From a plasmid, in the sequence record NZ_MK262712.1: DNA of 64,000 nucleotides; one strand, 5' to 3'. Numbering within the stretch: position 1 is the first letter of the stretch; every line of letters starts with the position of its first letter. The position numbers are program-made. Below, one piece after another: positions 18,001 through 21,000 of the stretch.

Positions 18001-21000
18001 GTACCAAGTATTGAATCTGTCCGACAGGCTGCGCCTTCCAAGACGTAATCTCTTCATCGAGCTCCTTTGCCAGCCTGCTGACCTGGGACGAGCTGACTTC
18101 GGTGCCACAAAGAATTTCGACGATATCCGAGACCCTGCGGGTACTTACTCCTTTGACATACATTTCGGCGATGGCGAGCTTGAGAGCACGCTCACTGCGC
18201 ATGCCTTTCTCGATGCAGCTGGGATAAAACTCCATCCCGCGAACTTGTGGTACTTTCAAGAGGACTTTCCCGGTCGCAAGATTGAATATTGGATTATTTG
18301 GATTTACCAACAAACACTACTATTTAGCTACGAAAACTCAAGAGAAGTACACAAAACCTTTTGGAAGTGATGGAAGTTTAAGTCCTCTTGATTATAGTGT
18401 AGGTATTGGAACAGGTTTAGAATTAGGACATTTCCAGTTTATGTTTGGCTATGATTACCCTCTTAGTAACAGTTCGAAAGATCCAGACCTAAGTCAAGTA
18501 CGCCAACACAACTTCAGAGCAAGTATAGCATATTCATTTAGAAAGCTAAAAAAATAAAACTAACCTAGGGCTTTGGATATTTTCAAGGCATCTGATAAAG
18601 ACTTAACATCATGGGTGCGGAGATAATCTGCACCTTTTTTGTATGCATACATTTCTGCTGCAAGAGTTGGTGCTAAACGAGATTTCACATCGGTTCCAGT
18701 TATTTTACCTAAGAATGATTTCCGTGACACTGCAATCATTACTTGCAAATTAAAAGCTTCTTGAATTTCAGGGAAACGCTTCAAAACAAGAATAGATGTT
18801 TCTGGATTAGAGCCTAAAAAGAAGCCCATACCCGGATCAAGAATAATTCGTTCACGCTTTACACCAGCCTCAACTAAAGCAGCAATTCTTTCTTTAAAAA
18901 ATTCCATCATGGAAGTAAAAACCTCTTCCGGATTCGTTTCAACTTTAGTAGCTGCACCAATTCGCTGAACGGAGTGCATCAACACAAGTTTGCAATCTGA
19001 CTTTGCCAAGCCTGAATAAATCTCAGGATAAGGAAAACCTTGAATATCATTAATAAAATCAACCTATTGTTCTATGCAAAAACTCTGAACCTCAGGTTTA
19101 AATGTATCAACAGAAATAGAAATGCCTTTTTCTTTTAAAGCCTTAATGACAGGTTTGAGTCTTTTGATTTCTTCCACAACGCCCACTTCAGTTGTATCAG
19201 GATTACTGGAAGCGGCTCCCAAATCAATCACATCTGCTCCATCTTCAACCAAATGCAGAGCATGCTCAATTGCCTTATCTGTATCTAAATAAAGTCCTCC
19301 ATCGGAAAAACTATCGGTGGTTATATTTACGATTCCAAAAATCTTGCTCATATCATTTTGCTTTGATTACAAAAGTAGCATTTATCTTAATTGACTAATT
19401 ATCACTTACGCAAATTGACACATTTTCCCTATCTTTGCAGCCTAATTTTTTTGTTTTAATTCATTATGAAAACTGATAGGAACTGTCATTTCGAGTTTTT
19501 CGCGGTTTTGGGTCAAAATTCGGTTTTTTCCCCGAACTACGACTGTTTTCGCACCCCGAACAACTAATCCAATCAGAATTTTCCGGCAACGCCGACTCCA
19601 AGAAGTGTAATTCCAGTCTATTTCTGCCGTCAACCCCTGATTCGCGTTAATGCGACAAAGCTCAAACACATAACTCCCCCACGAAGCCATATAAACTCCG
19701 ATTTCGAGGTGTTATCCTGTTCCGCATAAACTTCGTTTTTGGGTATTATACCTACACCAAAGCAAGAAGATTATGGGTCCAAACTTCATTTGTATATTTT
19801 GCAAACAAATATCTGCCTGTCATATCTGTCGGAGTGTGGTGATACTCCTTTGCATTAAAAATGCGCTGATAAAAGGTAGTTCAGCAAAAGGCGAAACGCC
19901 AATAAATATATCTATAACCGGTTTCGCCCGTTGATTGGGTATCGCCGTGCTTCCGATATGTTCAATGGCTACGGCATGAGAACCGAAAAAATGGAGCAAT
20001 TTTATTTTCTCTTCTTCAAAATTCTTTGTCCAATCCGGGTTATATTCCATAATTTCAATTTTCATGATAGTTTCGTCCTTGCCTCAAAAACCATGTTTGG
20101 TATTATACTCCATATCTCTCCGGTGCAGGAATAGCCTTTTCTGATGCACGGCTAACAGCTTCCCATTCTTCCCAGGTAGCCATCCGTGCTTTTAAGGTAT
20201 CCATCGCCAAATCGTATACCATGCTGCCAAGGATAAGCCTCAAAGGCGGATTATTGCTGGCTACTAATTTCATAAGGGCTTCCGCTGCCAAGGAAGGATC
20301 ACTATCGACCGAATCTTCGGAATACTGTTTCGCCAGCTCATCGCGCAGTGTACCGTATGAATCTAATGGATTGCTGTAACTCATCGAAGTGTATAAATCT
20401 GTCCAATATCCTCCTGGTTCCACCATAGTGAGTTTCACTCCGAAATGTTCCGCTTCTTTTGCTAAGGCTTCACTCATTCCTTCCAGCGCAAATTTACTTG
20501 CACTGTAAATACCAGACATCGGACCCGAGATAATAGCGCCAATGCTTGTAATCTGTATGATATGTCCAGAACGCTGCGACCTCAAATAGGGCATCACTGC
20601 CTGACAAACCCAAAGAGCTCCAAAAAAGTTTGTGTCCATTAGTTTCCGAGCATCGGATTCGTTTAGTTCTTCAATCATACCCATAGTCATGATACCCGCA
20701 TTATTAACAACAATATCAAGCCTACCGAAATGTTTAACTGCTGTTTCAACCGTAGAAAAAACAGCCTCCCTATCTGTAACATCGAGGTTTAATGGCAGTA
20801 AGCTCTCTTGATATGTTTCTTCTAGCTTCGCCAAATTATCGATAGTCCTTGCAACTGCAACAACTTTATCCCCGGCTTTCAAGGCGGCGCATGTAAAAGC
20901 ATAGCCAAGCCCCTTGCTTGCTCCGGTAATAAACCATACTCTTTTATTTTCGCTATTAGGTATCATAGATATTCTCCTTTAGGCTATTATAGAAAGATTA

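What the first reader, a model, noticed from the sequence alone, without database searches (positions are those of the whole stretch)
19474..19716. sul3 and armA share a 243-bp, about 96 percent identical upstream segment in the same relative orientation
The stretches 19474-19716 (ending about 120 bp before the sul3 start) and 52695-52937 (ending 26 bp before the armA start) are near-identical. Both lie on the coding-strand 5' side of two unrelated low-GC resistance genes that sit in different mobile contexts (IS440 platform versus ISCR1-ISEc28). That implies one of three things: a common progenitor genome or vehicle, a shared portable promoter/leader cassette, or a recombination hotspot. The armA ORF frame is open for 23 extra codons into this segment.
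Basis: seen in the sequence. Interest (0 to 1): 0.6.

Follow-up and report, generated by a model that had tools for sequence, protein, structure and literature searches.

The report
ISCR28 end relics beside sul3, armA
The DNA shared upstream of the sul3 and armA resistance genes is the leftover tail of one known gene-capturing mobile element, ISCR28, so it marks a common vehicle and not a common source genome or a new regulatory cassette.

Summary
The repeat is real. Window 19474-19716 and 52695-52937 are 243 bp, ungapped, with 6 mismatches (97.5%). Both copies lie 5' of their genes on the minus strand.

It is not a new kind of element. Both copies are truncated relics of the origin-of-replication (oriIS) end of ISCR28, a 1708-bp IS91-family rolling-circle element. 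ISCR28 was named in pSY153-MDR, and its capture of armA is published.
- The sul3 relic is longer: 19472-19766, ISCR28 nt 1414-1708.
- The armA relic is nt 1464-1706. An ISEc28 insertion cut it, and it lacks the terminal GT.

So 243 bp is only the overlap of two independent truncations. The same tail, at 73-99% identity, ends full-length copies in many unrelated genomes, next to sul4, erm and other genes.

A common progenitor genome is not supported:
- The sul3 module (18272-19471) is a Bacteroidales chromosomal omp'-folP-metG' fragment that stops exactly at the ISCR28 end.
- ArmA has no homologue above 41% identity.

A conserved promoter-like motif in the tail is untested.

The sul3-ISCR28 link and the Bacteroidales source of sul3 appear in no paper I could search. 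That is the only new content.

The parts
19472..19766 (-). Relic of ISCR28, nt 1414-1708. It holds the last 4 codons and stop of the transposase gene, then the 280-nt non-coding tail, ending ...GACAGTTCCTATCAGT (oriIS end).
   Evidence: 98.6% identical over 295-297 nt to full-length copies in L007, L016, L032, L041 and L053. All sul3 plasmids carry the same nt 1414-1708 piece.
52695..52937 (-). Relic of ISCR28, nt 1464-1706. It is the tail only and lacks the terminal GT. The right end of ISEc28 cuts it upstream.
   Evidence: 99.2-99.6% identical to full-length copies. The junction reads TATCA|AATACTT, where most of the other contexts read TATCA|GT. An independent ISEc28 piece in an Aeromonas plasmid ends at the same base, window 52938.
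18272..19471 (.). sul3 module. It is a chromosomal fragment of Bacteroidales type: the 3' part of an OMP beta-barrel gene (18282-18557, +), folP = sul3 (18560-19351, -), the folP-metG intergenic region, and the first 6 nt of metG (ATGAAA, 19466-19471, +).
   Evidence: 83-84% nt identity over about 1200 nt to L071, L072, L074 and L075. These carry the synteny metG / folP / OMP_b-brl_2 / FKBP / LUD ... ftsH. The window ORF hits Pfam OMP_b-brl_2.
18560..19351 (-). sul3. In this window it is interrupted by a nonsense codon, K96* (AAG>TAG at 19064-19066).
   Evidence: There is a single difference from the intact sul3 of pKP14052-MCR-1 (L070). The ORF list shows two pieces of 95 and 149 aa.
51675..52694 (-). 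armA module: 26 nt of leader, armA (52668-51895), and about 220 nt downstream. The same module lies between ISCR28 and a 131-nt ISCR28 relic in pSY153-MDR.
   Evidence: 98.98% identical to L069 over 1273 aligned columns spanning window 52937-51675. Homology stops at 51675, where the downstream ISCR28 relic begins in pSY153-MDR.
52938..53834 (-). Truncated ISEc28 (IS5-type DDE transposase ORF 53830-52994). ISCR1 cuts its left end, and its right end interrupts ISCR28.
   Evidence: Pfam DDE_Tnp_1 and DDE_Tnp_1_5. The ORF starts 4 nt after the ISCR1 end. The right end is confirmed in L073.
53835..55608 (-). ISCR1: transposase ORF 55608-54067, then its oriIS end ...GGTTTATACTTCCTATACCC, which finishes at 53835. 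It serves here as an in-window comparator for the ISCR28 end.
   Evidence: 513-aa ORF. The end sequence is read. It shares the core TTCCTAT with the ISCR28 end.
19604..19633 (-). Sigma-70-like site TTGACG-N18-TACACT inside the shared tail, pointing toward sul3. The same site lies at 52825-52854 pointing toward armA. It is a candidate outward promoter and is untested.
   Evidence: Promoter scans: 9 of 12 matches, and the number of sites is not above shuffled controls. Both hexamers are kept or improved (TATACT, TAAAAT) in most diverged copies.
19820..20065 (-). Truncated GrpB-family gene, preceded by an SDR oxidoreductase gene (20966-20103). This DNA abuts the upstream breakpoint of the sul3-side ISCR28 relic.
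   Evidence: Pfam GrpB, profile positions 1-59 of 159, and adh_short. The same arrangement is annotated in L070.

Best explanation
The shared segment is the overlap of two independently truncated relics of the 3' (oriIS) end of ISCR28. ISCR28 is a 1708-bp IS91-family element that moves by rolling-circle replication and can carry neighbouring DNA with it.

Shown:
- Full-length copies carry a 430-aa IS91-type transposase gene followed by a 280-nt non-coding tail.
- The window keeps nt 1414-1708 beside sul3 and nt 1464-1706 beside armA.
- ISEc28 inserted into the armA copy.
- The two copies derive from slightly different ISCR28 variants.
- The window has no ISCR28 transposase gene, so both relics are inert here.

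Inferred:
- ISCR28 once sat with its oriIS end against each gene: 6 nt into metG beside a Bacteroidales folP for sul3, and 26 nt before armA in an unknown donor.
- Units bounded by ISCR28 ends, such as the ISCR28-armA-relic structure still present in pSY153-MDR, moved the genes onto plasmids.
- Later deletions and IS insertions removed most of the element.
- The tail may also supply a promoter, above all for armA, which has only 26 nt of its own leader.
For: Identity of the element:
- The 20-nt end of the segment occurs in 65 stretches of unrelated genomes.
- The whole 243 nt recurs at 73-98% identity, always directly after an ORF ending ...KIINWAKQQEREQPV....
- The full unit is exactly 1708 bp in L016, L053, L041 and L045, with different flanks on both sides.
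- It is 99.9% identical to the element next to armA in pSY153-MDR. Its authors call that structure ISCR28-armA-deltaISCR28 (PMC5620268).
- The capture of armA by ISCR28 is the title of Yuan et al. 2024, as cited in PMC12772301.

Family:
- Transposase: Pfam Zn_Tnp_IS91 plus Y2_Tnp. NCBIfam IS91 family scores 132.7 against a cut-off of 125.
- The end motif TTCCTAT is shared with the ISCR1 oriIS in the same window.

State in the window:
- Relic extents.
- ISEc28 terminus at 52938.
- Six differences split as 4 private to the sul3 copy and 2 to the armA copy, relative to canonical ISCR28.
- The whole window holds only these two ISCR28 matches.
- In plasmids the segment occurs only beside sul3 or armA; all three shorter matches examined were armA loci cut by later IS insertions.

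Other cargo next to the same end: Sul4, Erm and other DHPS genes.
Against: - The capture events are inferred from junctions, not observed.
- In the standard IS91 model, DNA beyond the terIS end is co-mobilised, not DNA beyond oriIS. A gene downstream of oriIS therefore needs a second oriIS or a circular intermediate. Such a second end is seen for armA in pSY153-MDR, but none was found on the far side of sul3, where IS440 now sits.
- The armA relic lacks the terminal GT, so its junction is not a clean element end.
- I could not read Yuan et al. 2024. I cannot say how much of this, including sul3, is already described there.
Confidence: 0.9

Rival explanations
1. The segment is shared because it is a portable promoter/leader cassette. 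On this view it was retained next to both genes because it drives their expression in Enterobacteria.
For: - One sigma-70-like site, TTGACG-N18-TACACT, lies in both copies and faces the genes.
- Both hexamers are conserved across copies down to about 75% identity, and the -10 variants TATACT and TAAAAT are closer to consensus.
- armA has only 26 nt of its own upstream DNA.
- The native sul3 leader looks Bacteroidales-type, with TACTTTTG before the ATG. Such promoters are, from general knowledge, poorly used by E. coli.
- ISCR1 is known from the literature (my own knowledge, not checked here) to carry outward promoters at its oriIS end.
Against: - The number of promoter-like sites is no higher than in shuffled sequence.
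- The spacer is 18 nt and the match is 9 of 12.
- Many other blocks of the tail are equally conserved, as expected for transposase recognition.
- Retention of the tail is explained without selection for expression, because it is simply the part of the element closest to the cargo.
- There are no transcript data.
Confidence: 0.2
2. The segment is native DNA of one progenitor genome from which both sul3 and armA came.
For: Both genes are low in G+C and both carry the segment on their 5' side.
Against: - Chromosomal relatives of the sul3 module (L071, L072, L074, L075) align up to window 19471 and then continue into metG, not into the segment.
- The segment belongs to a 1708-bp unit with a transposase gene, present in many phyla with unrelated flanks.
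- The best ArmA homologue is 41% identical, and none is from Bacteroidales by name.
Confidence: 0.02
3. The identity results from recombination or gene conversion between the two loci on plasmids, that is, a recombination hotspot.
For: Two direct copies lie 33 kb apart on one replicon, and some plasmids carry both (several records with 2 places).
Against: - Across 1385 plasmid records the identities fall into two bands: 936 at >=99% to the sul3 query, and 443 at 95-99%; every listed record near 97% that I opened or checked was an armA locus.
- The six differences persist, and each copy is closer to environmental ISCR28 copies than to the other.
Confidence: 0.03

Closest known systems
ISCR28 (IS91-like 'common region' element). 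ISCR28-armA-deltaISCR28 in pSY153-MDR: Yuan et al. 2017, PMC5620268. [quoted passage not shown] 2024, Int J Antimicrob Agents 64:107250.
   Same: The window segments are 98.6% (sul3 side) and 99.2% (armA side) identical to the 3' end of the 1708-bp element. That element is itself 99.9% identical to the pSY153-MDR copy. The armA leader and junction are the same as in pSY153-MDR apart from a 10-nt duplication.
   Different: Only 295 and 243 nt remain here, with no transposase gene and no terIS. The association with sul3 is in none of the six held papers that mention ISCR28. I could not read the 2024 paper.
ISCR1 and its oriIS end in complex class 1 integrons
   Same: - The same family-level transposase architecture.
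- The resistance gene sits directly beyond the oriIS end.
- The ends share the core TTCCTAT: ISCR1 ...ACTTCCTATACCC versus ISCR28 ...CAGTTCCTATCAGT.
   Different: The ISCR28 transposase scores 102 against a cut-off of 925 for the NCBIfam ISCR clade Ia model. Apart from the core motif, the tail has no detectable similarity to the ISCR1 tail.
sul4 modules carrying ISCR28 (PMC12772301; first described with an ISCR20-like element, PMC5732528)
   Same: A dihydropteroate synthase gene taken from a chromosome, with a fragment of a neighbouring gene, abuts the ISCR28 oriIS end. I see this for Sul4 in L016 and L007.
   Different: In sul4 modules, and in the sul3-like module of L053, the 3' end of the gene faces oriIS. 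In the window the 5' end of sul3 faces it. The donor lineage also differs.

Membership tests
ISCR28 | Nucleotide identity to the element named ISCR28 in pSY153-MDR (KY883660) | tested here: met
   The 1708-bp unit from L016 matches KY883660 at 100% coverage and 99.9% identity, beside armA. The window relics are 98.6% and 99.2% identical to that unit.
IS91 family / ISCR elements | Transposase with an IS91-type zinc-binding domain and a Y2 (HUH-type) transposase domain | tested here: met
   Tested on full-length relatives, since the window relics lack the gene. Pfam PF14319 at 7e-18 and PF04986 at 5.9e-14. NCBIfam transpos_IS91 scores 132.7 against a cut-off of 125.
IS91 family / ISCR elements | Two different ends (terIS, oriIS) without terminal inverted repeats, and no target-site duplication | tested here: met
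   The left end is AACATTCGGTTGAGC... and the right end is ...GACAGTTCCTATCAGT. Flanks of six independent full copies show no direct repeat.
IS91 family / ISCR elements | An oriIS end carrying the conserved terminal motif seen in other ISCRs | tested here: met
   The core TTCCTAT is shared with the ISCR1 end in the same window. The comparison is with one in-window reference only. The published consensus could not be read.
IS91 family / ISCR elements | Rolling-circle transposition initiated at oriIS, with read-through past terIS | not testable with these tools
   This needs transposition assays. There is only indirect support: many contexts, and tandem copies of the terminal 28-59 nt.
ISCR clade Ia (ISCR1-like) | Score above the NCBIfam NF052416 cut-off | tested here: not met
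   102 bits against a cut-off of 925.
Outward promoter (as described for the ISCR1 oriIS end) | A -35/-10 pair facing out of the element, with measured activity | tested here: inconclusive
   A TTGACG-N18-TACACT site is present and conserved, but the count is not above shuffles. There are no expression data.
Structured single-strand origin (hairpin recognised by the transposase) | Conserved stem-loops supported by compensatory changes | tested here: inconclusive
   The single-sequence fold is no better than shuffles (z = -0.20). The consensus fold of 9 diverged tails has 33 pairs and none has a compensatory change. An invariant internal TGATTGGA is complementary to the terminal TCCTATCA.
Integron attC site / gene cassette | R''-L''...L'-R' architecture recognised by attC predictors | not tested
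   PMC12772301 reports attC predictions at or just after ISCR28. I ran no attC model.

The most novel reading that the evidence does not exclude
ISCR28 is the missing first vehicle of sul3. It inserted 6 nt into metG next to the chromosomal folP of a Bacteroidales bacterium (Paludibacteraceae-like) and carried a 1.2-kb omp'-folP-metG' fragment into the Enterobacterial plasmid pool. A second, independent ISCR28 capture of a related folP is still visible in L053. This would give sul3 both a donor lineage and a mobilisation mechanism, neither of which appears in any paper I could search. It would also make ISCR28 a recurrent exporter of target-replacement genes (sul3, sul4, armA, erm) from anaerobic and wastewater communities.
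Probability: 0.5. Interest if true: 0.6.

Novelty: new member of a known kind. Interest (0 to 1): 0.35.

Why it matters
As a shared sequence, the segment has an ordinary explanation: it is the scar of a known transposable element. Nobody should read it as a novel regulatory module or as evidence that armA and sul3 come from one organism.

The useful by-products are three.
- sul3, whose origin has been open since 2003, is tied here to a specific vehicle and breakpoint, and to a Bacteroidales chromosomal synteny (metG / folP / OMP). That makes a targeted search for the donor species possible.
- The 295-nt relic is present in over 900 sul3 plasmids but unannotated in nearly all the records listed, where a few label it a hypothetical protein. 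It can now be annotated.
- ISCR28 emerges as a common route for several clinically important genes.

Tried and rejected
- Single-strand fold of the 243 nt: energy no better than shuffles.
- Consensus folding of 9 diverged tails: no compensatory pairs.
- Promoter scan: one weak site per copy, not above chance.
- Truncated plasmid hits that might have been a third context. All three examined (H56, H57, H59) were armA loci with later IS1394, IS10A or IS26 insertions.
- Search for a near-identical sul3 donor.
  - The protein search gave at best 90% aa identity.
  - A metagenome scan with a folP-metG junction pattern gave two contigs at 84% nt.
  - The donor species was therefore not found.
- Cluster look-up for organism names of the Sul3-like proteins: none were recorded. 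Taxonomy came instead from MetG neighbours.
- ArmA relatives: nothing above 41% identity, so there is no donor lead.
- Papers.
  - Yuan et al. 2024 and Toleman et al. 2006 are not held.
  - Searches combining sul3 with armA/ISEc28/IS440, IS91/IS440, Paludibacter or 'origin of sul3' found nothing relevant; a sul3 + oriIS search returned 11 papers, of which only PMC12772301 was opened.
- The 82-aa ORF inside the segment (19442-19690), annotated as hypothetical in some records, was rejected as a gene. The armA copy has a stop in that frame.

Full report
**1. The observation**

The two stretches align without gaps over 243 nt with six mismatches, 97.5% identity. Identity stops abruptly on both sides.

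Both resistance genes are on the minus strand:
- sul3 runs from 19351 to 18560.
- armA runs from 52668 to 51895.

The repeat is therefore on the coding-strand 5' side of both genes. It ends 122 nt before the sul3 ATG and 26 nt before the armA ATG.

The 23-codon open extension of the armA frame exists, with a TTG at 52737. It has no support as coding sequence.

**2. What the segment is**

In 72,556 plasmids the segment occurs in 1385 records. Every record I opened or saw annotated puts it beside sul3 (100% identity to the sul3 copy) or beside armA (97.5%). All three shorter matches I examined are armA loci hit later by IS1394, IS10A or IS26. Plasmids therefore give no third context.

Read on the minus strand, the segment ends ...CGAAATGACAGTTCCTATCA. 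This resembles the ISCR1 origin end in the same window...GGTTTATACTTCCTATACCC.

A scan of one genome per bacterial and archaeal species for that 20-mer gave 65 stretches. Most are Spirochaetota and other MAGs, apparently largely from anaerobic or wastewater samples, and many lie at contig ends, as expected for a multicopy element.

BLAST of the segment against these loci gave two results:
- The full 243 nt recurs at 73-98% identity.
- It always follows an ORF ending ...KIINWAKQQEREQPVAVCARSPPELALVSV.

Comparing loci with one another defines a unit of exactly 1708 bp with unrelated flanks on both sides. Its 430-aa protein has the IS91 zinc-binding domain and the Y2 transposase domain, and it passes the NCBIfam IS91-family cut-off.

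The unit is 99.9% identical to the element beside the second armA copy of pSY153-MDR. The authors of that plasmid named the structure ISCR28-armA-deltaISCR28 (PMC5620268). [quoted passage not shown] I could not read it.

**3. Anatomy in the window**

The ISCR28 transposase ORF occupies nt 136-1428 of the element.

- The sul3-side relic is window 19766->19472, which is nt 1414-1708. It holds the last four codons, the stop, and the complete 280-nt tail including the terminal GT. The same piece is present in the sul3 plasmids listed.
- The armA-side relic is 52937->52695, which is nt 1464-1706.
  - Its upstream edge is the right terminus of ISEc28. An independent ISEc28 fragment in an Aeromonas plasmid ends at the identical base with a different flank.
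  - Its downstream edge lacks the GT that follows TATCA in most of the other contexts.

The figure of 243 bp has no biological meaning of its own. It is the shorter relic.

Relative to canonical ISCR28, the sul3 copy has four private changes. The armA copy has two, which it shares with a Spirochaetota MAG copy. The two relics therefore descend from different ISCR28 variants.

The window contains no other ISCR28 sequence and no ISCR28 transposase gene. Both relics are inert scars here.

**4. What lies beyond each relic**

*armA.* The armA module (window 52694-51675) is the same as in pSY153-MDR. There it sits between a complete ISCR28 and a 131-nt oriIS relic. The junction differs only by a 10-nt duplication...TTCCTATCAGTTCCTATCAAATACTT.

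*sul3.* DNA from 18272 to 19471 is 83-84% identical to chromosomal regions of uncultured bacteria. In these regions folP is flanked by metG on one side and by an OMP beta-barrel gene on the other, followed by FKBP, LUD-domain, phospholipid synthesis and ftsH genes.
- The window keeps exactly the first six nucleotides of metG (ATGAAA) before the ISCR28 end.
- The MetG of the best such contig is 89% identical to Paludibacteraceae MAG proteins and 85-86% to Bacteroides.
- These chromosomal folP products are 86-90% identical to Sul3 and pass the NCBIfam Sul3 cut-off.
- No donor above about 84% nt identity was found, so the assignment is to a lineage, not a species.

*A second capture.* In L053 a 99.9%-identical ISCR28 abuts a related folP module (83% nt identity). 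It does so from the opposite side, inside the OMP gene, and the module retains about 100 nt of metG. This points to a second, independent association.

*Other cargo.* ISCR28 ends also abut Sul4, an Erm methylase, another DHPS and a gene that looks like a tetracycline ribosomal-protection gene (by its N-terminal sequence only).

*ArmA.* It has no homologue above 41% identity among 5.8 billion proteins.

**5. Mechanism**

The best-supported account is a shared vehicle. ISCR28 came to lie with its oriIS end against each gene. Units bounded by ISCR28 ends were moved by the rolling-circle transposase. Later deletion (on the sul3 side, fusing nt 1414 to a truncated GrpB gene) or IS insertion (ISEc28, then ISCR1, on the armA side) removed the rest of the element.

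- Shown: the identity of the relics, their breakpoints, the source of the sul3 module, and the intermediate armA structure.
- Inferred: the transposition steps.

In the textbook IS91 model the co-mobilised DNA lies beyond terIS, so cargo beyond oriIS needs a second oriIS or a circular intermediate. That second end exists for armA in pSY153-MDR. It is not visible for sul3, where IS440 now ends the module.

**6. Rival explanations**

*Promoter cassette.* This is not excluded. A TTGACG-N18-TACACT site faces both genes, and its hexamers are kept or improved in diverged copies. However, the count of sites is not above shuffles, and other blocks of the tail are equally conserved. Structure prediction gave no signal beyond conservation.

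*Common progenitor genome.* The chromosomal alignments and the ArmA search contradict it.

*Recombination hotspot.* The stable separation of the two sequence types contradicts it.

**7. Novelty**

The element is known, and so is its link to armA.

What I could not find in the searchable literature is any link between sul3 and ISCR28 or IS91-type elements, or any named origin for sul3. The unread 2024 paper may cover part of this.

I rate the finding as a new instance of a known kind. Interest is modest for the shared segment itself. It would be higher if the sul3 origin and vehicle turn out to be unreported.

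Noticed in passing
window 19064-19066: sul3 carries a nonsense codon, K96* (AAG>TAG). This is its only difference from an intact reference copy. The gene in this window is therefore a pseudogene, or there is a sequencing error.
   Followed up: partly
window 18272-19471; L071 7880-9070; L072 789-1992; L074; L075: The sul3 module is a fragment of a Bacteroidales-type chromosome: the 3' end of an OMP beta-barrel gene, folP, and the first 6 nt of metG. It is 83-84% nt identical to four chromosomal contigs with the same gene order. 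The nearest named MetG relatives are Paludibacteraceae MAGs.
   Followed up: yes
L053 128-2973: A complete ISCR28 abuts a sul3-like folP module that passes the NCBIfam Sul3 cut-off. It does so from the other side, so the 3' end of the gene faces oriIS. About 100 nt of metG are retained, and a tyrosine-recombinase gene lies beyond. This looks like an independent capture from a related donor.
   Followed up: partly
L068 2318-2571; L058 213-291; L037 4394-4514; L006; L009; L045 2102-2194; L069 5690-5720: The last 28-73 nt of the ISCR28-like end occur as short tandem arrays, up to five copies of a 59-nt unit, in Spirochaetota and other MAG contigs. pSY153-MDR and L059 have a 10-nt terminal duplication. 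This may come from repeated initiation or termination at oriIS, or from slippage. It is unexplained.
   Followed up: no
L006, L015, L020, L024, L031, L033, L037, L046, L049, L051, L058 (all contigs of JAEINK01, Spirochaetales MAG2): A diverged subfamily shares the terminal 20-mer but is followed by TT (mostly TTTC) where ISCR28 has GT. It sits at the ends of at least ten contigs of one MAG, so it is a high-copy element there. Another subfamily is followed by AC. Matches in archaeal and candidate-phyla bins may be binning artefacts.
   Followed up: no
window 19442-19690 (minus strand): An 82-aa ORF inside the ISCR28 tail appears to be what some plasmid records annotate as a hypothetical protein under the match (not checked against the records). 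The armA copy has a stop codon in that frame, so the ORF is very likely spurious.
   Followed up: yes
window 19545-19552 with 19474-19481 (same positions in the armA copy): An internal TGATTGGA is complementary to the terminal TCCTATCA. It is invariant in nine tails that are otherwise down to about 75% identical. There are no compensatory changes, so pairing is unproven.
   Followed up: partly
window 5196-6304: About 26 copies of a 42-bp tandem repeat, in two blocks, lie directly after a 294-aa ORF (4187-5071, possibly a replication-initiator gene; not tested). Long ORFs through the array look like artefacts of the repeat. It may be an iteron-type array.
   Followed up: no
window 51895-52668 (ArmA): Among 5.8 billion proteins the nearest non-identical ArmA relative is 41% identical. 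The few named hits are unclassified or candidate-phyla MAGs. The donor of armA remains untraceable with these data.
   Followed up: partly
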